Position numbers and translations under genes: made by a program. This document shows positions 1 to 45,761 of a stretch of DNA of 64,000 nucleotides, piece after piece. The stretch's first letter is position 1; each line of letters starts with the position of its first letter. The DNA lies in IMG/VR virus record IMGVR_UViG_3300028840_005153, positions 1-64,000 of that record; one strand, written 5' to 3'. This stretch comes from a virus. The notes below the pieces were generated by a model. It worked only from the letters and a program-made list of their open reading frames with translations, made no database searches and was not told where the DNA came from.

Positions 1-27
1 CCACTTCACTGATGAGATAGCCATCAG
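1..27 (+). ncRNA. Hammerhead ribozyme cassette, copy 1 (3' part only, truncated by window edge)
   Basis: CTGATGA at 9-15 followed by GATAGCCATCAG, then AAAAGGAGG and ATG at 54, the same 3' layout as the four complete copies. Confidence 0.7.
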
Positions 28-53
28 AAACATTTTTCAAAAGGAGGAGAATT

Positions 54-260
54 ATGTCACACGCTCAAACTTTTGCGGAACAGCTAATTGAAATTCTCGG
101 TTTTGCTGCGGAAGAGGAGCCGGATTGTTATCAGACTTTCGATCCGGTAGACTTTGGAACCCTTCGTGAAAAGTATTTGACAAATGACGAAGGAGTTTGG
201 GTCAGCTTTGGCAATGGGGATGAATATACTATTGTCGTTAAAAAAGTAAAAGGAGAATAA
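54..260 (+). CDS. hypothetical protein
   Basis: ORF with strong AAGGAGG RBS. Confidence 0.8.
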   Translation: MSHAQTFAEQLIEILGFAAEEEPDCYQTFDPVDFGTLREKYLTNDEGVWVSFGNGDEYTIVVKKVKGE

Positions 261-261
261 A

Positions 262-480
262 ATGCTACCGATAATAAAAAATAGCGTTCCGGAAAAAAAG
301 AAAAGCAAAGTCTTCCGTTCCCTTCGCTTTCGTATTCTTTATAAAATAAAGAATATTGAAAGTAAAGTATTGACGGCGGGATTTGCAGTTTATGGCGATG
401 CCCTCCTTTACGCTTCCGCATTGCGTTCCTTGGAGGTAGCAAAACATTCGTGGGAAGAAATTTACATCGAGTTTAAATAA
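262..480 (+). CDS. hypothetical protein
   Basis: ORF with AAGGAG RBS, abuts previous gene. Confidence 0.7.
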   Translation: MLPIIKNSVPEKKKSKVFRSLRFRILYKIKNIESKVLTAGFAVYGDALLYASALRSLEVAKHSWEEIYIEFK

Positions 481-553
481 TTCGAAACCGGGAAGACTTT
501 ACTTCCCGGTCGTATCAGGGTGGTGCCTGATGCCTGAAGATGATAGCCTTCAG
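481..553 (+). ncRNA. Type II hammerhead ribozyme, copy 2
   Basis: GAAAC 484-488; stem III CGGGAAG/CTTCCCG; GTC 509-511; stem I GTATCAGG/CCTGATGC with loop GTGGTG; CTGAAGA 534-540. Confidence 0.85.
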
Positions 554-584
554 AAACATTTATTTTTTTAAAAGGAGGAGTAAA

Positions 585-1685
585 ATGGCGAAAGAATCGA
601 AAGTTGGATTTGCGAAACCTGCTAATGGGAAAGTGGTCCACATTGTTGTCGACGGCCTTCAGGCTTGCGATAAGAAAACCACTTTGACTGCTGATCCTGA
701 ATTGCAAATTACTTCGGTAACTTGTAAGAAATGTCAGCGCTTTGCTTTTTATAAGGAAATCCTTGTTAAAGGGCAAAAGCAGGAAGAGAAATCCACAAAG
801 GGCGATTCGAAGAAAAAATCTTCCAAGCCGAAGAAAAAGGTTGTGGATGCGCCTAAAAAAACGCCGGAAGAAATTGCCGATAAAAAAGCGGCAAAGGAAA
901 AAGATGAAGTAAAATCTCCCGGTCCTGTTAAACATACGAAAGTAAATGTTAACAGGAAAGAAAAGCGCAATCATGCAAAACTTGTCGCCGCTACTCAAGA
1001 GTCGCTTCTTGAGGTTCTTCTTCCCTTCCAAAAAGAAAAAATCCATGAAATTTCAATCATGCGCATATTTGAGGAAGCTCAAACTCATTTGCGCCAAATG
1101 CTTATGGATGCTTGTGAAGGGCAGGAAGAAAAAGATTATTTGAAAAGCCATTGGACGCTTGATTGGCGTATATTTACTCAGGCGTTTGAGAAAATTGGCT
1201 TCGCTAAATTGCGCGGCAAAGATCCTGACAAGGGACGCGTGGTTCTTTTCTATAGCGAAAAAGCAGAAAAGTCAAAGACTAAAATTAGGCGTCGCAATAA
1301 TAGCGGTTCAAAGAAAACGGCTCGCGTTATTAAACGCCGCTCCAAACCTAAAGATAAGGCGGAAGAAGAAAAGAAAACGGGTCGCGTTATTAAACGCCGT
1401 TCAAAGAGTAAAGATAAAGAAAAGACGGTCACCAAAAAGCTCAAAGATAAAAATGCTTACGGTCATCGCGAAGGCTCAATGGCGGCGAAAATTGATGAAA
1501 TGCTTTCGGAAGGTTTTATCCTTAAGGATGCCGTCGGAATTATTTCTAAAGAATTTAATCGATCAGATATAAAAGCGCGAAGAAAAATTTTGGCAGCTAT
1601 TAAATACCTTTCGCGTGAGTTGGGTATTAAAATCGAAGTAATAATGCAGGGAAGTCAAGAAGATGATTTTTATAAAATAGTTTAA
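585..1685 (+). CDS. Lys/Arg-rich hypothetical protein (N-terminal H/C motif, possible C-terminal HTH)
   Basis: AAAGGAGG RBS places start at 585; internal 60-bp duplication encoding RVIKRRSK twice. Confidence 0.75.
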   Translation: MAKESKVGFAKPANGKVVHIVVDGLQACDKKTTLTADPELQITSVTCKKCQRFAFYKEILVKGQKQEEKSTKGDSKKKSSKPKKKVVDAPKKTPEEIADKKAAKEKDEVKSPGPVKHTKVNVNRKEKRNHAKLVAATQESLLEVLLPFQKEKIHEISIMRIFEEAQTHLRQMLMDACEGQEEKDYLKSHWTLDWRIFTQAFEKIGFAKLRGKDPDKGRVVLFYSEKAEKSKTKIRRRNNSGSKKTARVIKRRSKPKDKAEEEKKTGRVIKRRSKSKDKEKTVTKKLKDKNAYGHREGSMAAKIDEMLSEGFILKDAVGIISKEFNRSDIKARRKILAAIKYLSRELGIKIEVIMQGSQEDDFYKIV

Positions 1686-1716
1686 TTATACGGGGGAATT
1701 TACTTCCCCCGTATAA
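1686..1716 (+). other. Strong hairpin without U-tract preceding hammerhead
   Basis: TTATACGGGGGAA / TTCCCCCGTATAA 13-bp stem. Confidence 0.75.
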
Positions 1717-1717
1717 A

Positions 1718-1786
1718 CCCGAAACGCGGCTTCGGCCGCGTCGTCGCGAGGTGGTGCTCGTGGCCTGACGATGGGAGCCATCGCAG
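1718..1786 (+). ncRNA. Type II hammerhead ribozyme, copy 3
   Basis: CCC-GAAAC (GAAAC 1721-1725); stem III GCGGC-TTCG-GCCGC; GTC 1740-1742; stem I GTCGCGAG/CTCGTGGC loop GTGGTG; CTGACGA 1765-1771 then T-GGG pairing with the 5' CCC. Confidence 0.88.
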
Positions 1787-1814
1787 AAAAACATCTTTCA
1801 AAAGGAGGAGAATT

Positions 1815-3248
1815 ATGGGCATCGAAGCAAAAAGAATCGTTGATTTTCTTCGGGCAGGCTATGGAGCGTTCTGGATTAAAACGCAGGAGCCTGACAGGGT
1901 TCAGTCGGTATTGATGCCAATGGTCAAAGACTTCCAAAGAAAAGACGGTGGAAAGTACAATCTTTCAAGCTGGGATTGTTCTACTTCGTCTAATCCTTTG
2001 GAACCACTTAATCAATTGAGTGCGGAAGAGGAATTGACAGTTAAATTTCTTTTCAATTTCCATTGGTTCATAGACAAGCCTCAAGTTATCCAGAAGATTC
2101 AAAACGATCTTCCTCTTTGGGCTTCAGAAGGCAAAGCAATCGTGATCGTTGCGCCGGTAGTAAAAGTTCCGGTTGAATTGCAAAATGATTTCACGATTTT
2201 GAATTTTAGCTTGCCTGACGAAAAAGAAATTCTTCACACAATTTCTTATCATATTCCTGAAGGGAAGAGAGGTCCAAGCGAAAACGAAATGGCGCGGCTA
2301 ATTGGTGCGGCCAAAGGGTTAACGCAAAAGGAACTCAATAATGTTTTGAGTCTCTCAATGGTAGTAAAAGGCAAATACGATACCGCGCTAATTAACGAGC
2401 ATAAAGCTACGGTCATTGAGAAGACGGGATTTGTAGAAGTTATCCCACCGAAGATAAACTTCTCAAACGTAGTTGGTTATGAAGTAGTCAAAGATCATGC
2501 TCGTGCTACCATGCACAATCCTAAGGCGAAAGGGTTCATGGTAATTGGCCCTCCAGGTTGTGGTAAAACTACCCTAATGAACGCAATCGTTGGCGAGTCT
2601 GGGAAGATCGGGCTGAAGATCACGCTTGGAAAACTCTTTTCTAAGTTTCAAGGGGAAACGGATGCCAATGTAGATTTCGTAATTAACCTTATTAAATCCA
2701 TTGGTGATTGCGTTGTTTTGATAGATGAGTTTGAAAAGCAATTTGCTGGATCTTCTGGAGATGGAACACTCGATAGCGGAACCACTCGGCGCGCGACTGG
2801 TCGGTGGTTGGAATTTCTTCAAGATCGGCCATCGGGCGTTTTCATTGTAGCTACGGCGAACAGTTTTAATGGTATCCCGCCGGAATATCTTCGGCCAGGA
2901 AGATGGGATACTTCGCCATTTTTTATTGATCTGCCAAATAAGAAAACTCAAGATTCGATCTTCAAATACTATGCTGAAAAATATAGTATTGAAGAAAAGA
3001 AAATCCCTAAAATGGAAGGCTGGTCAGGGGCTGAGATCGAAGCATGTTGCCAAATTGCTGATATGCACGGAATACCGTTTACTTCGGCAATGCGCTTAAT
3101 CAAACCTCAATCGGTAACAATGAAAGAACAAATTGACGCCCTGAGGTCGTGGGCAAAGGACCGCACCATAAATGCGGAAGAAGTCAAAGACATTCCAGTC
3201 AAGGCTGGAGTGGTGGCATTAAACGGTAAACGCAAAATTGATACTTGA
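1815..3248 (+). CDS. AAA+ ATPase, Ycf46-like (degenerate N-terminal AAA domain plus active C-terminal AAA domain)
   Basis: Walker A GPPGCGKT, Walker B VLIDEFEK, ATAN, PPEYLRPGRWD, GWSGAEIE, C-terminal EQIDALRSWA. Confidence 0.88.
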   Translation: MGIEAKRIVDFLRAGYGAFWIKTQEPDRVQSVLMPMVKDFQRKDGGKYNLSSWDCSTSSNPLEPLNQLSAEEELTVKFLFNFHWFIDKPQVIQKIQNDLPLWASEGKAIVIVAPVVKVPVELQNDFTILNFSLPDEKEILHTISYHIPEGKRGPSENEMARLIGAAKGLTQKELNNVLSLSMVVKGKYDTALINEHKATVIEKTGFVEVIPPKINFSNVVGYEVVKDHARATMHNPKAKGFMVIGPPGCGKTTLMNAIVGESGKIGLKITLGKLFSKFQGETDANVDFVINLIKSIGDCVVLIDEFEKQFAGSSGDGTLDSGTTRRATGRWLEFLQDRPSGVFIVATANSFNGIPPEYLRPGRWDTSPFFIDLPNKKTQDSIFKYYAEKYSIEEKKIPKMEGWSGAEIEACCQIADMHGIPFTSAMRLIKPQSVTMKEQIDALRSWAKDRTINAEEVKDIPVKAGVVALNGKRKIDT

Positions 3249-3255
3249 TGAAATC

Positions 3256-3275
3256 GGGGGAGCATTTGCTCCCCC
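3256..3275 (+). other. Hairpin without U-tract preceding hammerhead
   Basis: GGGGGAGCA / TGCTCCCCC. Confidence 0.7.
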
Positions 3276-3282
3276 AAATAAA

Positions 3283-3357
3283 TTCGAAACGGCCGAAGTA
3301 ATTACTTCGGCTGTCGCTGGCGAGTGGTGTCGCCAGCCTGATGATGATAGCCATCAG
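3283..3357 (+). ncRNA. Type II hammerhead ribozyme, copy 4
   Basis: GAAAC 3286-3290; stem III GGCCGAAG/CTTCGGCT; GTC 3313-3315; stem I GCTGGCGA/TCGCCAGC loop GTGGTG; CTGATGA 3338-3344. Confidence 0.88.
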
Positions 3358-3388
3358 AAACATTTATTTTTTTAAAAGGAGGAGTAAA

Positions 3389-3595
3389 ATGGCGAAACAG
3401 GTAAGGATTACTCTCGGCAAGGACGGAAGTGTTAAAGCTGAGGCCCTTGGCTTTAAGGGCGGAGCCTGTGAAGACGCGACAGCTTTCCTTGACAATCTCT
3501 TTGATGGTCCAAAGAAAAGAGATTTGAAAGCAAGCTATCACGAAACCGAAGACATCCAAGTATGCAATGGACTTCCTTCGGGGTGGTGCGGCTAA
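3389..3595 (+). CDS. DUF2997-like small protein
   Basis: I.I..DG.V..E..GFKG.AC...T..L pattern; typical neighbour of Ycf46-like ATPases. Confidence 0.75.
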   Translation: MAKQVRITLGKDGSVKAEALGFKGGACEDATAFLDNLFDGPKKRDLKASYHETEDIQVCNGLPSGWCG

Positions 3596-3644
3596 TTTCG
3601 AAGAGGAAAGTAAACAGTAAAAAAATAAACGAAAGGAAAAAGTC

Positions 3645-4016
3645 ATGTCTCACATTTCTACTTACGCTCAAAAAGTCAAAGACATTTCCAGCTTTAAAGT
3701 TACTCTTCAAAACCTTGGCATTACTTACCGTGAAAATTGCGATGTCCAGCAATTTGGCCGGAATATTGTAGAAAATGCCGCCATCGGATTTCAAATTCCT
3801 GGTTGGAAATATGAAATCGCAGTCAAAGATGATGGCAGCATCCTCTACGACCATTGGGGTAGTGAGCCTAATACAATGGAACGTCTCGGCCTTGTTTTGC
3901 AAAAATACAACGAAGACGTCATTCTTTCCGCAGCTTATGGACAAGAAAATGTCTCCAATGTATGGACAGAAAAAAAGGTCGCAAATGGTGATACGGTAAT
4001 TGTTTTGGAATACTAA
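3645..4016 (+). CDS. DUF1257/Ycf35-like protein
   Basis: N-terminal MSHIST...KD...L..LG and YDHWG motif; context with Ycf46-like ATPase and DUF2997. Confidence 0.75.
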   Translation: MSHISTYAQKVKDISSFKVTLQNLGITYRENCDVQQFGRNIVENAAIGFQIPGWKYEIAVKDDGSILYDHWGSEPNTMERLGLVLQKYNEDVILSAAYGQENVSNVWTEKKVANGDTVIVLEY

Positions 4017-4038
4017 AATCCTTGCAAGGAGTAAAAAG

Positions 4039-4398
4039 ATGGAAAAACAAAAAGTGACTGTAGGAACGCTTTTCAATCTTAATACCTACCATTTCGGTTC
4101 GGGCACAAAAAGTGAATGGAAGATAAAAGAGAAAAAGCCTGGACAACATTACAAGCTGACGCGGGGCGAAGATATTATGGTTTTTAAAACTATGCTCGAC
4201 GCTTATCTTCGTGTTATCGTAGAAGTTAGTTTCAATGGTTTGATTGTCCATCATTGTCCAATTGATGCTTATAACCTGGAAGAAAAACACCGGAACTTTT
4301 TTATTGGCTTGCAAGAAAAATGCTTTGAGTTGAGAGCCAATAAAAACGTGAAGAAAAAAGAACACTTTGAAAAGGTTTTTAACATTGTGAAAATTTAA
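4039..4398 (+). CDS. hypothetical protein
   Basis: AAGGAG RBS, ATG at 4039. Confidence 0.7.
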   Translation: MEKQKVTVGTLFNLNTYHFGSGTKSEWKIKEKKPGQHYKLTRGEDIMVFKTMLDAYLRVIVEVSFNGLIVHHCPIDAYNLEEKHRNFFIGLQEKCFELRANKNVKKKEHFEKVFNIVKI

Positions 4399-4404
4399 CT
4401 GTGA

Positions 4405-4424
4405 GGGGTCCCTACGGGGACCCC
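4405..4424 (+). other. Hairpin without U-tract preceding hammerhead
   Basis: GGGGTCCC-TACG-GGGACCCC. Confidence 0.75.
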
Positions 4425-4425
4425 A

Positions 4426-4502
4426 TTCGAAACGGCGGAAAGACTTTTCTTTCCGCTGTCGTGCTGAGGTGGTGCTCAGTGCCTGAAGATGATAGCCTTC
4501 AG
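4426..4502 (+). ncRNA. Type II hammerhead ribozyme, copy 5
   Basis: GAAAC 4429-4433; stem III GGCGGAAAGA/TCTTTCCGCT; GTC 4458-4460; stem I GTGCTGAG/CTCAGTGC loop GTGGTG; CTGAAGA 4483-4489. Confidence 0.88.
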
Positions 4503-4533
4503 TTAAATAATCTTTTTTAAAAGGAGGAGTAAA

Positions 4534-5445
4534 ATGGCTAAATCCAGAGAAATCCGCAGACGAGTCAAAGAAACCACGACAGTCAATGTTTTCCGTGAGG
4601 GTGTTCTTGTCCATCTCAAAGTGGGTCGCTGGGGAGCAAGGGCGAAGATGAAAGAAGAACATTTGCCGGATGACTTCCCTCGGGAAGTTGCTCGCGCTGT
4701 TCAAGACCTAATCGAAGACAAAACACTTCTTCAAGACATTTCGTCAATTCGAAGAGAATGTAAGCGGTATCTCATCAACCGAAGTCTTCCTTTCCCGGTT
4801 GACGGCCTTTTCTTTGTTCCAAAGAAATTCATCCTTGATATTGATAATTTCTTTGAAAACAAAAAAGAAGAATATAATGAAAAGGTCAATGAATTTTTCT
4901 CTCAATACGGAAGGCTTAAAAGGGATTTCCGTAGAAGGTATCCGGAAATTTATCGGGATGAAAAATATCCGCGTGAAAGTATTCTTCGGAGAAAATTCTA
5001 TTTTCATTGGTCATTCCGGCAATTCGTTGTTCCGGATAAGGAAATGGAAATACTTTCACCTGATGTTTACCGTAAGGAAATGGCGAAGTTCAAGCAAGAC
5101 ATTGAAGAAATGAAAAACATGACAGTCGCGGTTATTGGAAATGCTTTTGTGAAAAAGATCAATACCTTGGCGCGTCAATGCAACAATGAGAAGATCAATG
5201 CTGGAACAATCAAAGGTATCAACCAATTGCTGGAAAAGTTTGATACCCTTTGGGGAGACTTCGTTGGGCAAAAGCAATTGAAGTCAACCATCGAAGAAGT
5301 TCGTCGCCATATGAAAACGGTCAGTGCGGATCGTTTGCGGGAAAACGAAGACTTTCGAGAAAAGATCGGCAGCCAAATGGAAAAGATAGTAGGCAAACTC
5401 GAAAAACTTCCAGATGTTAGATTAAAAAGGAAACTGGATGTTTAG
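4534..5445 (+). CDS. DUF3150-like helical protein
   Basis: W.A..K start, SLPF..DG.FFVP, YP....LR.KF.F.W pattern; strong RBS. Confidence 0.55.
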   Translation: MAKSREIRRRVKETTTVNVFREGVLVHLKVGRWGARAKMKEEHLPDDFPREVARAVQDLIEDKTLLQDISSIRRECKRYLINRSLPFPVDGLFFVPKKFILDIDNFFENKKEEYNEKVNEFFSQYGRLKRDFRRRYPEIYRDEKYPRESILRRKFYFHWSFRQFVVPDKEMEILSPDVYRKEMAKFKQDIEEMKNMTVAVIGNAFVKKINTLARQCNNEKINAGTIKGINQLLEKFDTLWGDFVGQKQLKSTIEEVRRHMKTVSADRLRENEDFREKIGSQMEKIVGKLEKLPDVRLKRKLDV

Positions 5446-8488: not shown

Positions 8489-8523
8489 TAGTCAATAACC
8501 ATATACAGCAAAGGAGAAAAAAG

Positions 8524-9652: not shown

Positions 9653-10588
9653 ATGTCTTTCCGTGAATTGATAGAATCTTTTGATGTAAAGTCTTTCCTT
9701 GATGAACGTGGGATAGACTTTACAGAATATGGAAAAAATGTAACTCGAGGTTGGATAAATATTAGGTGCATCTTTTGCTCTGACCATTCAAATCATCTTG
9801 GAATAAATTTAAAGACGAAGCAAATTCATTGTTGGAAATGTGGAAGTCATAAATTAATTAATCTCATTCAGGAATTAGATGATTGCAGTTATGGCGCGGC
9901 AAAAGATACACTTTCAAAGTTTGGGGGGATCCTTGTCTCTGACGTCGAAGACAATTCTCCTCGGTCTGAGACGGCACCACCACTGAGGCGTAGGATCCTC
10001 CCTCCAGAATGTTCAAGAGAATTTCCACGGATGCATTTAAAATATCTTCGCAGTCGTGGCTTTAATCCTCGTAGAATTATTAGTCGTTTCAATTTACGGG
10101 CGACTCATAATATTGGAAAATATAAATTTAGAATAATCGCTCCGTTTTATTATCGTGATAAAATTGTTTCCTTTACCGGCCTGGATGTAACTCGTAAACA
10201 GGAAGTTCCTTATAAAAATTCTCCAATTGCAAATTCTATTATTGATCCAAAAAAGATCATCTATAATCTGCAAAATATTGGATATGGTGGTTCATTAGGT
10301 GTCGTTGAAGGTATCACCGATGCTTGGAGGATCGAAGAAAATGTAACAGCAACGATGGGAATAAAATGGACAAAGGAACAATTTTATCTCTTGACAAGAC
10401 TTAATAAAAAAAGACTTTTCATTATCTTTGATGGAGAGCCGCAAGCACTTACGGAAGCAAAAAAATTAGCTCGCGATGCGAGCGGTTTTATATCTAAAGT
10501 AGAAGTAATTGAACTACCCTATGGTAAGGACCCATGTGATCTACCGGAGAAGGATATAAGCAAAATCAGACGATGGCTTAGAGAGTAA
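9653..10588 (+). CDS. DNA primase (Zn finger plus TOPRIM)
   Basis: CIFC..H / HCWKC zinc finger; VVEGITDA, IFDGE, KDPCD. Confidence 0.9.
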   Translation: MSFRELIESFDVKSFLDERGIDFTEYGKNVTRGWINIRCIFCSDHSNHLGINLKTKQIHCWKCGSHKLINLIQELDDCSYGAAKDTLSKFGGILVSDVEDNSPRSETAPPLRRRILPPECSREFPRMHLKYLRSRGFNPRRIISRFNLRATHNIGKYKFRIIAPFYYRDKIVSFTGLDVTRKQEVPYKNSPIANSIIDPKKIIYNLQNIGYGGSLGVVEGITDAWRIEENVTATMGIKWTKEQFYLLTRLNKKRLFIIFDGEPQALTEAKKLARDASGFISKVEVIELPYGKDPCDLPEKDISKIRRWLRE

Positions 10589-44382: not shown

Positions 44383-45761
44383 CAGCTATACCCAAAAATA
44401 CGGCTCCAGATTATCAGAAGTATTACAAGGGAAATCCGTTCACCAAAAAGAGTGTGATGCAAATTCTTGTAGAAGAATATGGAGTCGAACAAATTTTAAA
44501 AATGTTAACCGAAGAGGAAAGACAACTCCTCTTTTATTGTTGGCGAGTATGGGGTCGCCCGGAGCAATTGTCTCCAACTTGGGAATGGATTGTCTGGATT
44601 TACCTTGCCGGACGTGGTAGTGGCAAAACAAGAAGTGGAGCTGAATGGGTCAGAGAACAAGTAAAACGCGGTCATAAAAGAATTGCTTTCGTTGCTGCTA
44701 CTGCCGCTGATTACCGTGATACTATGGTGGAAGGTGATAGTGGAATACTTGCTATTTCTCCACCGTGGGACATGCCTGATTGGGAGCCTTCAAAGAGGAA
44801 AGTCACTTTTAAAAATGGTGCCAAATGTTATTGCTTTTCGGCAGAAAAACCTGATCGTCTTCGAGGTCCTCAGTTTGAAAAAGCATGGTGTGATGAATTG
44901 GCCGCATGGGGTCGTTTGCAGGAGACATGGGATAACCTCATGTTTGGCCTGCGTTTAGGAAGTAATCCACAAGCTATGGTGACAACGACCCCTCGGCCTC
45001 TTTCATTAATCAAAGAACTCGTAAATGATAGTCGCAATGCAGTTTCACGCGGTAGCACTTACGATAACATCGCAAACTTGGCAGAGAATTTCTTTCGCTA
45101 TATTATAAAGAAGTATCAAGGAACACGCCTTGGAAGACAAGAAATTGAAGCGGTTATTTTAGAAGATAATCCAAATGCACTTTTCAAAAGAGAACTCATA
45201 GATCAGCATAGAATTACTTCAGATCAATTACCTGATCTCGAAGATGTTGTCATTCCTTTGGACCCTGCTGTAACGGACGGAGATAAAAGTGATGATACTG
45301 GAATCATACCTTGTGGAATGGCAACAATAGATGATATGGAACATTACTACATTTTAGGAGACTATACTATCCACGGTAAACCTCATGAATGGGGTGAAAT
45401 GGCTTTGAAGTGTTATAGTCTTTTTCATGCGAATAAAATTGTGGGCGAAGTAAATAATGGCGGAGACATGATAGAGCATGTTATCCGCACTATTAAAAAG
45501 AATAAGAAAAAAGGTATTCATGTTTCCGGTTATAACGTACCATATGAAAGTGTTCGGGCAACGAGGGGCAAATGGTTACGAGCCGAACCAATTTCTGCTT
45601 TAAGCGAACAAGGAAGATTACATATTGTGGGAAGTCTTCCTAAGCTCGAAGATGAAATGTGTGAATGGCAGCCAGGAGAGAAAAGTCCTGATCGCTTGGA
45701 TAGTATGGTTTGGGGAATTACTGCTTTGAGCGAAGGCGGAGATAAAATTTTCGTAGCATAA
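44379..45761 (+). CDS. Terminase large subunit
   Basis: AGRGSGKTR, LRGPQF..AWCDE, TTTP, GRQE, LDPA, E.NNGG, SPDRLD. Confidence 0.95.
   Translation: MTAIPKNTAPDYQKYYKGNPFTKKSVMQILVEEYGVEQILKMLTEEERQLLFYCWRVWGRPEQLSPTWEWIVWIYLAGRGSGKTRSGAEWVREQVKRGHKRIAFVAATAADYRDTMVEGDSGILAISPPWDMPDWEPSKRKVTFKNGAKCYCFSAEKPDRLRGPQFEKAWCDELAAWGRLQETWDNLMFGLRLGSNPQAMVTTTPRPLSLIKELVNDSRNAVSRGSTYDNIANLAENFFRYIIKKYQGTRLGRQEIEAVILEDNPNALFKRELIDQHRITSDQLPDLEDVVIPLDPAVTDGDKSDDTGIIPCGMATIDDMEHYYILGDYTIHGKPHEWGEMALKCYSLFHANKIVGEVNNGGDMIEHVIRTIKKNKKKGIHVSGYNVPYESVRATRGKWLRAEPISALSEQGRLHIVGSLPKLEDEMCEWQPGEKSPDRLDSMVWGITALSEGGDKIFVA

What the first reader, a model, noticed from the sequence alone, without database searches (positions are those of the whole stretch)
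1..4533. Array of five type II hammerhead ribozymes used as gene-by-gene mRNA processing cassettes
Seen: four complete copies (481, 1718, 3283, 4426) and one partial copy (1-27) share YC-GAAAC, a stem III hairpin, GTC, an 8-bp stem I with invariant loop GTGGTG, then CTGANGA-T-G(A/G)..AGCC. Stem I and III sequences differ completely between copies yet always pair, which is strong covariation. Stem II also covaries (TC-GAAA...T-GA versus CCC-GAAA...T-GGG). Each copy ends 26-31 nt before an ATG with an AAAAGGAGG RBS, and three are preceded by a strong hairpin without a U-tract right after the upstream stop codon. Established: GAAA / NUH / CUGANGA is the hammerhead catalytic core, and this permutation is type II. 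Inference: self-cleavage after C511, C1742, C3315 and C4460 cuts one early polycistron into units with a hairpin-protected 3' end and a 5'-OH hairpin-capped 5' end. This would be a protein-free analogue of RNase III processing of T7 early mRNA.
Basis: partly seen in the sequence, partly recalled or inferred. Interest (0 to 1): 0.93.

Follow-up and report, generated by a model that had tools for sequence, protein, structure and literature searches.

The report
Hammerhead ribozyme before each early phage gene
An uncultured 76-kb marine phage places a self-cutting hammerhead RNA directly in front of the ribosome-binding site of at least twelve consecutive gene units; this arrangement was described for prophages in 2011, but here it is unusually dense, it is conserved across a phage clade, and it carries an extra hairpin that has not been described.

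Summary
The four complete copies and the partial copy are type II hammerheads (Rfam RF02276). Two pass the gathering score, one scores 33.3 bits, and one is missed by Rfam although its core and stems are intact. The window is part of a 76,048-bp virus contig, and seven more copies lie at its far end. That makes at least 12 copies, all on the + strand, in one block that spans the contig ends.

Each copy sits in a 98-140-nt intergenic cassette: stop codon, optional GC hairpin, hammerhead, spacer, AAAAGGAGG, ATG.

Seven of nine related phages (ATPase 45-55% identical) carry the same arrays, with up to 15 copies, at orthologous gene junctions. Covariation is strong: 98% of cells paired against 63% when shuffled.

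The proposed function, protein-free cutting of a polycistronic transcript into hairpin-capped mRNAs, is the best reading. It is untested here, and Perreault et al. proposed it in 2011.

Two things appear new:
- All 12 copies have a hairpin that pairs the CUGANGA core with a downstream anti-core and co-varies at N7. It is absent from 37 distinct hammerheads in relatives.
- The two relatives without hammerheads carry other cassettes at the same junctions: a pistol-like motif with its P1 apparently moved 3', and a ~25-bp hairpin.

Other first-stage notes on this same genome described the far-end copies and the anti-core.

The parts
1..27 (+). 3' part of hammerhead HH8: stem I 3' strand 1-8, core CUGAUGA 9-15, stem II strand and GCC tail 16-22, anti-core 22-27. 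Its 5' half is lost at the contig break.
   Evidence: Truncated match to model R1, positions 50-88; sequence.
39..56 (+). AAAAGGAGGAG Shine-Dalgarno sequence and ATG (54) of the unit holding the 68-aa and 72-aa genes (54-260, 262-480).
481..553 (+). Hammerhead HH9; cleavage after C511; core 534-540; anti-core hairpin 534-553. The upstream stop codon ends at 480, 2 nt before C-GAAA.
   Evidence: Not detected by Rfam; 93 bits with R1.
570..1685 (+). Shine-Dalgarno sequence (570-580) and 366-aa gene (585-1685); no family match.
1686..1716 (+). 13-bp GC-rich hairpin without a U-tract, between the stop codon and HH10 (-20.6 kcal/mol).
1718..1786 (+). Hammerhead HH10; cleavage after C1742; core 1765-1771; 9-bp anti-core hairpin 1765-1786.
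   Evidence: Rfam 52.6 bits.
1800..3248 (+). Shine-Dalgarno sequence (1800-1810) and AAA+ ATPase gene (1815-3248, 477 aa). Hammerheads flank the orthologous gene in related phages.
   Evidence: Pfam PF00004.
3256..3275 (+). 8-bp GC hairpin without a U-tract, after the ATPase stop codon.
3283..3357 (+). Hammerhead HH11; cleavage after C3315; core 3338-3344; anti-core hairpin 3338-3357.
   Evidence: Rfam 43.8 bits.
3374..4398 (+). Shine-Dalgarno sequence and a three-gene unit with no internal hammerhead: 3389-3595 (DUF2997), 3645-4016, 4039-4398.
4405..4424 (+). 8-bp GC hairpin without a U-tract.
4426..4502 (+). Hammerhead HH12, the last of the array; cleavage after C4460; core 4483-4489; anti-core hairpin 4483-4502.
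   Evidence: Rfam 33.3 bits, below the gathering score; R1 81.8 bits.
4519..5445 (+). Shine-Dalgarno sequence and DUF3150 gene (4534-5445), the first gene of the last unit. There are no further hammerheads downstream.

Best explanation
These are genuine type II hammerhead ribozymes of the pseudoknot kind. They are arranged as at least 12 intergenic cassettes in one co-oriented block of small genes, upstream of the replication genes of a tailed phage. The most likely mechanism (inferred) starts with one long transcript made from the ~900-nt non-coding region that precedes the first copy. Each hammerhead then cuts itself after the C of GUC. The upstream RNA ends in the long stem III hairpin (7-12 bp) plus C with a 2',3'-cyclic phosphate, and in 5 of the 11 complete copies there is a second GC hairpin before it. 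The downstream RNA starts with a 5'-OH that is already paired in the 8-bp stem I hairpin. Because stem II is only 2-4 bp, the two products should fall apart. The freed CUGANGA core then pairs with its anti-core, so each mRNA carries two adjacent 5' hairpins, an A/U-rich spacer, a strong Shine-Dalgarno sequence and its gene or genes. The result is gene-sized mRNAs whose ends resist exonucleases and whose translation start regions are insulated from upstream context, made without any host or phage nuclease. Shown here: identity, covariation, cassette geometry, conservation at orthologous junctions, and the anti-core pairing. Inferred: transcription as one unit, cleavage in vivo, and the effects on stability and translation.
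For: Identity: 9 of the 11 complete copies pass the Rfam RF02276 gathering score, and all 11 have intact core residues and stems. Covariation: on 59 distinct sequences from this phage and its relatives, 98.4% of cells are paired, against 63.2% when shuffled and 34-42% when the partner is slid; 14 of 15 pairs show changes on both sides. Geometry: every hammerhead, here and in relatives, is followed by a Shine-Dalgarno sequence and a start codon 36-64 nt after the start of the core. The intergenic regions are 98-140 nt and are filled by the cassette; 6 of 10 upstream stop codons end 2-4 nt before C-GAAA. Conservation: a hammerhead lies directly upstream of the AAA ATPase gene in all 7 hammerhead-bearing relatives, and directly downstream in 5 of them. 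Class-independent use: the two relatives without hammerheads have a pistol-like motif (27.1 bits) or a long hairpin of -30 to -38 kcal/mol at the same junctions. No excess of promoter-like or terminator-like sites lies inside the array. Literature: the same arrangement and hypothesis, with in vitro cleavage of ~2-kb native polycistronic fragments, are in PMC3088659; three type II hammerheads cleave in vivo in Desulfovibrio vulgaris (PMC8782182); a hammerhead plus hairpin placed before an RBS raises mRNA and protein levels (RiboJ, PMC6206723).
Against: There is no RNA evidence. No RNA run holds this sequence, and the DNA was found only in sediment and seawater metagenomes. Nearest-neighbour folding of the uncut element favours the anti-core conformer by 2.5-8.2 kcal/mol over any fold that leaves the core free; the pseudoknot and tertiary contacts are not counted in that figure, so cleavage may be slow or conditional. 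Three copies (HH5, HH9, HH12) keep only a 3-bp pseudoknot. Nine of the 12 copies have an extra U or A between A9 and G10.1; this is tolerated or beneficial in a viroid hammerhead (PMC3705267) but is untested here. One copy is below the Rfam gathering score and one is undetected. The promoter is only a 9-of-12 consensus match. In most 3' products the Shine-Dalgarno sequence is predicted to pair weakly with the upstream U-tract.
Confidence: 0.7

Rival explanations
1. Conditional or timed ribozymes. The anti-core hairpin holds most transcripts in an inactive fold, so cleavage is slow or depends on a signal such as Mg2+, temperature, ribosomes finishing the upstream gene, or a helicase. The array would then set the timing or the relative amounts of the early proteins rather than simply cutting everything.
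For: All 12 copies form the CUGANG/CNUCAG hairpin (-2.7 to -10.8 kcal/mol), and N7 is always paired (U-A five times, U-G once, C-G three times, A-U three times). The hairpin is absent from 37 distinct hammerheads of relatives (mean -1.2 kcal/mol, z 0.2). The hairpin is the minimum-energy state in all 11 complete copies. In the three N7=A copies, the tail base that would extend the pseudoknot has changed to U, which keeps the hairpin at the pseudoknot's expense. Copies with the stronger stem II (CCC/GGG) also have the stronger anti-core hairpin.
Against: The hairpin is equally well explained as refolding after cleavage, which would lock the product and cap the mRNA. The copies are paralogues in one genome, so there are only about 2-3 independent compensatory events. 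Relatives do without the hairpin. Energies ignore the pseudoknot and tertiary contacts.
Confidence: 0.2
2. Recombination modules. The repeated ~100-nt cassettes mainly serve as homology patches that let early genes be swapped, duplicated or lost, as proposed for repeated promoter and stem-loop cassettes of T4-type phages (from my own knowledge). Cleavage would be secondary.
For: Cassettes are mosaics. Stem I is identical in HH4 and HH5, and in HH6 and HH10. The stretch from the core to the ATG, including the first codons (Met-Ala-Lys), is shared by HH9, HH11 and HH12. Assemblies break inside the array in this contig, in L017's record and in L036. The genes between the hammerheads are mostly orphans. 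Perreault et al. note that the identities of the flanked genes are not constant.
Against: This does not explain the strict conservation of catalytic residues, the compensatory changes in all three stems, or the replacement by a different ribozyme-like motif in a relative. It can coexist with processing.
Confidence: 0.07
3. Cleavage followed by ligation yields circular or spliced RNAs. This could be self-ligation or host RtcB acting on the 5'-OH and 2',3'-cyclic-phosphate ends.
For: In a type II hammerhead the two halves touch only through stem II, so the halves at the two ends of one excised unit could in principle reassemble. The ends have the right chemistry. Perreault et al. raised this possibility.
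Against: Across the 9 excised units whose two ends can both be read, only 2 have matching stem II strands (from the sequences). The anti-core hairpin would remove the core after cleavage. Perreault et al. looked for such products and found none.
Confidence: 0.03

Closest known systems
Clustered type II hammerhead ribozymes flanking genes in prophages (Perreault et al. 2011, PMC3088659; Rfam RF02276)
   Same: Same ribozyme class and permutation. Same pseudoknot between loop I and the 3' tail. Same arrangement of several co-oriented copies flanking single genes or short gene blocks in phage DNA. Same proposed role in cutting long phage transcripts.
   Different: There are at least 12 copies in one block (up to 15 in a relative), whereas the arrays tested in that paper were triples. 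Each copy is coupled at a fixed distance to a strong Shine-Dalgarno sequence. Stem III is long. Extra GC hairpins occur upstream. A core-sequestering anti-core hairpin is present that is not part of the published consensus. The genome is an uncultured marine or sediment phage, not a prophage.
RNase III processing of the phage T7 early polycistronic mRNA (from my own knowledge: Dunn and Studier)
   Same: A single early transcript is cut between genes into individual mRNAs whose 3' ends keep a protective hairpin. A related phage (L018) has ~25-bp hairpins at the same junctions where this phage has hammerheads.
   Different: In T7 the cut is made by a host protein acting on a long duplex. Here the RNA cuts itself, leaving 5'-OH and 2',3'-cyclic-phosphate ends. 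This phage's cassettes contain no RNase III-length duplex.
RiboJ and related synthetic ribozyme insulators (PMC6206723)
   Same: A hammerhead is followed by a hairpin and then the ribosome-binding site. After cleavage the mRNA starts with a terminal hairpin and a standardised leader. In E. coli this raises mRNA about 2-fold and protein 2-10-fold.
   Different: RiboJ is engineered from the tobacco ringspot satellite-RNA hammerhead, and its extra hairpin does not pair with the catalytic core. Here the parts are natural, type II, and repeated 12 times.
Alternative inactive folds of viroid hammerheads and engineered switchable hammerheads (from my own knowledge)
   Same: Core nucleotides are sequestered in a competing helix, so catalysis depends on which fold forms.
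   Different: In viroids the alternative fold protects a circular genome. Here the competing strand is a dedicated 5-9-nt anti-core placed just 3' of each ribozyme in an mRNA leader. I found no description of this for bacterial or phage type II hammerheads in the papers searched.

Membership tests
Hammerhead ribozyme, type II (Rfam RF02276) | Conserved core: C3 U4 G5 A6 N7 G8 A9; G12 A13 A14; A15.1-U16.1; cleavage triplet NUH | tested here: met
   CUGANGA is present in 12 of 12 copies. C-GAAA, the A-U closing pair of stem III and GUC are present in all 11 complete copies.
Hammerhead ribozyme, type II (Rfam RF02276) | Three helices around the core, supported by covariation; stems I and III closed by loops and stem II open (the type II permutation) | tested here: met
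   98.4% of cells paired; 14 of 15 pairs have changes on both sides; shuffled and slid controls are far lower. The order stem II 5' strand, GAAA, stem III hairpin, GUC, stem I hairpin, CUGANGA, stem II 3' strand was read directly. The alignment was fitted to the model, which inflates pairing somewhat.
Hammerhead ribozyme, type II (Rfam RF02276) | Pseudoknot of 4 or more bp between loop I and the tail 3' of stem II (Perreault 2011) | tested here: met
   GUGGU pairs with (G/A)CCAU (5 bp) in 8 copies (7 complete plus the partial one) and 4 bp form in HH1; only GGU/GCC (3 bp) remains in HH5, HH9 and HH12. Across relatives, loop and tail change together (for example UUUAGC/GCUAAA, UUGAUU/AAUCAA, UGAC/GUCA). 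78% have 4 or more bp, against 49% for swapped loop-tail pairs.
Hammerhead ribozyme, type II (Rfam RF02276) | Score at or above the curated gathering threshold (37 bits) | tested here: met
   Nine of the 11 complete copies score 41.4-52.6 bits. HH12 scores 33.3 bits. HH9 is not reported. So the feature is met for the array as a whole but not for every copy.
Hammerhead ribozyme, type II (Rfam RF02276) | Mg2+-dependent self-cleavage 3' of position 17, giving 2',3'-cyclic-phosphate and 5'-OH ends | not testable with these tools
   No RNA run holds the sequence; a bench assay is needed.
Clustered phage hammerheads that flank genes (Perreault 2011) | Several co-oriented hammerheads in intergenic regions flanking single genes or short gene blocks in phage DNA | tested here: met
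   Twelve copies delimit units of 1-3 genes. The contig encodes terminase, portal, prohead protease, a DnaE-type polymerase and helicases.
RNase III processing sites of the T7 early-mRNA type | An irregular duplex of about two helical turns between genes, as substrate for a host enzyme | tested here: not met
   The longest helices in this phage's cassettes are 7-13 bp. The relative L018 does have ~25-bp hairpins at the same junctions. So this phage works like the T7 system but is not a member of it.
Pistol ribozyme (RF02679), for the cassette in relative L019 only | P1, P2 and P3; a pseudoknot between the P1 loop and the left P2-P3 junction; a GU cleavage junction on the right; 10 conserved nucleotides (PMC4604425) | tested here: inconclusive
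   The hits are below threshold (27.1 and 21.5 bits against 34.5). They cover the AUAAAU linker, P2, the junction, P3 and GU, but there is no upstream P1. A downstream hairpin, with 5 of 6 pairs changed on both sides, has the invariant loop GCAAGA, which is complementary to UCUUGU in the junction. The pseudoknot never varies among the 6 copies, so there is no covariation for or against it.

The most novel reading that the evidence does not exclude
In this uncultured phage clade every gene unit of the block (one to three genes) is preceded by an interchangeable RNA-processing cassette. In most genomes the cassette is a type II hammerhead. In the window's phage it is a two-state hammerhead, whose catalytic core has a dedicated, co-varying anti-core that tunes cleavage or locks the product. 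In L019 it is a pistol-like ribozyme whose P1 hairpin has moved to the 3' side, which would be an undescribed permutation. In L018 it is a long conserved hairpin, either an RNase III-type site or an unknown ribozyme. If so, the clade is a natural experiment showing that RNA scission itself is what is selected at these junctions, and it would contribute a new hammerhead switch and a new pistol permutation.
Probability: 0.35. Interest if true: 0.75.

Novelty: new variant of a known kind. Interest (0 to 1): 0.55.

Why it matters
The biological role of bacterial and phage self-cleaving ribozymes is still described as largely elusive (PMC6765202). This locus and its relatives give an unusually clean case:
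- 12-15 ribozymes per genome.
- Each is at a fixed distance from a ribosome-binding site.
- They are conserved at orthologous junctions while protein identity has dropped to about 50%.
- They are replaced in sister genomes by a different ribozyme-like motif or by a long hairpin.

This supports the view that cleavage between genes is the selected function, and it gives concrete constructs for testing effects on mRNA stability and translation. The core/anti-core hairpin is a compact natural design for a refolding or self-limiting hammerhead. It resembles the synthetic RiboJ insulator and could be useful as a part. The value is limited because the phages are uncultured, no RNA data exist, and the basic phenomenon was published in 2011.

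Tried and rejected
- RNA evidence: no RNA holder is listed for window 1-5000. The runs that hold it are DNA contigs from sediment and seawater, and both may be the source of this DNA.
- Closing the contig ends: exact searches for the first and last bases in viral and metagenome contigs found nothing. Laying Logan contigs showed only short pieces that stop at the repeated cassette sequences. The 5' half of HH8, and any copies in the gap, remain unknown.
- Cultured relatives: no GenBank phage matches a cassette by blastn. The ATPase and the polymerase have at most about 36% identity to isolates.
- More examples of the L019 motif: the pattern scan gave only spurious hits outside L019's own contig, and a protein-based search returned the same nine contigs.
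- T7-like RNA polymerase (PF00940): no match, but the control genomes did not ring either, so this is uninformative.
- Other weak Rfam hits in the window (MS2 operator-like at 44925-44956, snoRNA and miRNA models) are far below threshold and were treated as chance.
- Reading the anti-core hairpin as an intrinsic terminator: rejected. The scan flagged 9-27, but the U-run starts 5 or more nt after the stem and a ribosome-binding site follows directly.
- The MAFFT alignment A1 misplaced stem III and one tail, so the covariation counts were made on the model-fitted alignment A2.

Full report
**What is there.** Window 1-4533 contains four complete units and one 5'-truncated unit with the full type II hammerhead anatomy: a short stem II 5' strand, C-GAAA, a stem III hairpin, GUC, an 8-bp stem I with loop GUGGUG, CUGANGA, the stem II 3' strand, then (A/G)GCC. 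Rfam's Hammerhead_II model (RF02276, gathering score 37 bits) gives 52.6 bits for 1717-1783, 43.8 for 3282-3356 and 33.3 for 4425-4501. It does not report the copy at 481-553 even in a 700-nt search at E<=10, although every core residue and stem of that copy is intact.

**The array is larger than reported.** The window is bases 1-64000 of a 76,048-bp IMG/VR virus record (linear, about 95% complete). Seven more copies above the gathering score (41.4-49.8 bits) lie at 73000-75507. A pattern scan and a clade-specific covariance model (R1) find 11 complete copies plus the truncated one at window 1-38. All are on the + strand, and there are no credible copies elsewhere in the genome. The contig ends inside an open reading frame at 76048 and begins inside a hammerhead, so the block spans the contig ends. 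The assembly evidently broke in the repeated cassettes, and the gap could not be closed. The contig is a tailed phage with terminase, portal, prohead protease, a DnaE-type polymerase and helicases, with its ORFs of 200 aa or more almost all on one strand. It has no close cultured relative. Its DNA occurs in sediment and seawater metagenomes.

**Structure and covariation.** R1 found 65 credible hammerheads in this genome and in 7 of 9 related phage contigs. On the model-fitted alignment, 98.4% of cells form standard pairs. The figure is 63.2% when the 3' partners are shuffled (0 of 500 shuffles reach the observed value) and 34-42% when the partners are slid by 1-3 columns. Fourteen of 15 pairs show changes on both sides. 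The fit to the model inflates pairing somewhat, but the margin is large. Here GUGGU pairs with (G/A)CCAU. Across relatives, loop and tail change together (UUUAGC/GCUAAA, UUGAUU/AAUCAA, UGAC/GUCA). Nine of the 12 copies have one extra base (U eight times, A once) between A9 and G10.1. In a viroid hammerhead an extra U at this place raised the cleavage rate 3-4-fold and an extra A lowered it moderately (PMC3705267), so this is not a reason to doubt activity.

**Cassette anatomy.** Each intergenic region is 98-140 nt and is filled by the cassette. In 6 of 10 internal junctions the upstream stop codon ends 2-4 nt before C-GAAA. Stem III is long (7-12 bp). The start codon lies 43-55 nt after the start of the core and is preceded by AAAAGGAGG. 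The hammerheads delimit eight single-gene units and at least three units of 2-3 genes. Gene products include an HNH endonuclease, an AAA+ ATPase, DUF2997 and DUF3150 proteins, and many orphans. Promoter-like and terminator-like matches inside the array are no more frequent than in shuffled sequence. That is compatible with one long transcript but does not prove it.

**An undescribed extra element.** In all 12 copies the core nucleotides C3-G8 pair with a sequence 8-14 nt downstream: CUGAUG/CAUCAG, CUGAAG/CUUCAG, or CUG-A-CGAUGG/CCAUCGCAG. The local hairpins are -2.7 to -10.8 kcal/mol, and 9 of 12 are stronger than at least 97% of tail shuffles. N7, which is free to vary for catalysis, is always paired: U-A five times, U-G once, C-G three times, A-U three times. 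In the three N7=A copies the partner has become U, which removes a base pair from the pseudoknot, so the hairpin is maintained at the pseudoknot's expense. The 37 distinct hammerheads of relatives lack any such hairpin (mean -1.2 kcal/mol, z 0.2). It is therefore a lineage-specific addition, not a by-product of the core sequence. In the uncut element this conformer is the predicted minimum, 2.5-8.2 kcal/mol below the best fold with a free core; the pseudoknot and tertiary contacts are not counted. Two readings fit:
- A hairpin that forms after cleavage and product release. It would lock the product and give the mRNA two adjacent 5' hairpins.
- A competing fold that slows or gates cleavage.

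The copies are paralogues, so the covariation rests on only about 2-3 independent events. Another first-stage note on this genome made the same suggestion. I saw the hairpin before reading that note, and searches are my own tests of it.

**Relatives.** The AAA ATPase (window 1815-3248) retrieved nine IMG/VR contigs at 45-55% identity. It also retrieved an 83-kb scaffold binned with a Desulfobacteraceae MAG, which is only a weak host hint. Copy numbers within the fetched loci were 15, 10, 9, 7, 6-7, 6 and 4; the record behind L017 has two more across its contig end. A hammerhead lies directly upstream of the ATPase gene in all seven hammerhead-bearing relatives and directly downstream in five. 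The positions have therefore been kept while the proteins diverged to about 50% identity.

**The two relatives without hammerheads are informative.**
- L019's genome (complete, 65.6 kb) has six copies of a different ~110-nt cassette at the same junctions. The cassette gives sub-threshold Pistol hits (27.1 and 21.5 bits against 34.5). The hits cover the AUAAAU linker, P2, the left junction, P3 and the GU junction, but there is no upstream P1. A downstream hairpin, with 5 of 6 pairs changed on both sides, carries the invariant loop GCAAGA. That loop is complementary to UCUUGU in the junction, which is where the pistol pseudoknot forms (PMC4604425). This may be a pistol with P1 moved to the 3' side. 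I found no report of such a permutation, but the evidence is six paralogues and an invariant pseudoknot.
- L018's genome (complete, 82.8 kb) has seven copies of a ~61-nt hairpin (8 bp, internal loop, 12-16 bp; -30 to -38 kcal/mol; z -4.8 to -9.1). The lower stem shows two compensatory changes, and there is no ribozyme match. It looks like an RNase III-type site.

Three kinds of cassette at one set of junctions favour RNA scission between genes as the selected function.

**Mechanism and rivals.** The best reading (confidence about 0.7) is protein-free processing of a polycistronic transcript. The resulting mRNAs would end in the stem III hairpin with a cyclic phosphate and begin with a paired 5'-OH stem I hairpin, followed by the refolded core hairpin, a spacer and a strong Shine-Dalgarno sequence. 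Rivals:
- Conditional or timed cleavage through the anti-core (0.2; an elaboration rather than an exclusion).
- Cassettes acting mainly as recombination modules (0.07). Mosaic identity between copies, reaching into the first three codons, is real, but this reading does not explain the catalytic conservation.
- Circular or spliced RNAs (0.03). The stem II strands at the two ends match in only 2 of the 9 units where both ends can be read, and Perreault et al. found no such products.

**Comparison with what is known.** The ribozyme class, its pseudoknot, the clustering around single phage genes, the processing hypothesis and in vitro cleavage of native triple arrays were all published in 2011. 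Later reviews still call the function unproven. The principle that different ribozyme classes occupy the same phage-associated positions is also published. The analogy to T7 RNase III processing is apt as a statement of how the system works, but it is not membership. The closest engineered counterpart is RiboJ, a hammerhead plus hairpin placed before an RBS, which raises mRNA and protein levels. What is new here:
- The density, and the strict coupling of each copy to a ribosome-binding site.
- Conservation at orthologous junctions across a clade.
- The co-varying anti-core.
- The alternative cassettes in sister genomes.

**Limits.** There are no RNA data, and the phages are uncultured. 'Early' and 'single transcript' are inferred. 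Thermodynamic comparisons omit the pseudoknot. The L019 and L018 readings are leads outside the window.

Noticed in passing
L019:8491-13570 (IMGVR_UViG_3300014204_000018; copies start at 8503, 8823, 9899, 11440, 12520, 13455): Six copies of a pistol-like cassette lie at the junctions where other clade members have hammerheads. They give sub-threshold Rfam Pistol hits without P1. A downstream hairpin has a conserved loop, GCAAGA, complementary to the P2-P3 junction sequence UCUUGU, so this may be a 3'-permuted pistol ribozyme.
   Followed up: partly
L018:6792-11800 (IMGVR_UViG_3300033148_005588; seven copies, for example 9878-9950): A repeated ~61-nt imperfect hairpin (8-bp lower stem with two compensatory changes, conserved internal loop, 12-16-bp upper stem; -30 to -38 kcal/mol) lies before the SD and ATG of successive genes. 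It is either an RNase III-type site or an unknown ribozyme.
   Followed up: partly
window 556-582, 3360-3386, 4505-4531 (and the other cassettes): In most predicted 3' cleavage products, the U-run upstream of the Shine-Dalgarno sequence pairs weakly with GGAGGAG (unpaired probability of the SD 0.01-0.2 in 9 of 11 products). This resembles a fourU-type thermometer. It could be meaningful or merely a composition effect.
   Followed up: no
window 585-593, 3389-3397, 4534-4542: Cassette homology runs into the coding sequence. The genes after HH9, HH11 and HH12 all start Met-Ala-Lys, and stem I is identical in HH4 and HH5 and in HH6 and HH10. This suggests duplication or gene conversion among cassettes.
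   Followed up: partly
G000 72100-73000 (L011:8100-9000), outside the window: A ~900-nt non-coding region with T-rich direct repeats and weak sigma-70-like matches lies upstream of the first hammerhead. It is the presumed promoter and leader region, and cleavage by HH1 would release it as a separate RNA.
   Followed up: no
L036 (JASFHE010000001.1, 83,343 bp, Desulfobacteraceae MAG): A phage-sized scaffold binned with a Desulfobacteraceae MAG encodes the ATPase at 50% identity and carries the same hammerhead array as L017. It is again cut by the scaffold end inside a hammerhead. This is a weak host hint.
   Followed up: partly
window 1815-5445: The gene set AAA+ ATPase, DUF2997, two unknown genes and DUF3150 is split by hammerheads into three units. 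The ATPase is the conserved anchor gene across the clade.
   Followed up: no
window 44925-44956 (- strand): A sub-threshold match to the MS2 operator hairpin model (26.1 bits against 40), near the start of the terminase gene on the opposite strand. It is probably chance.
   Followed up: no
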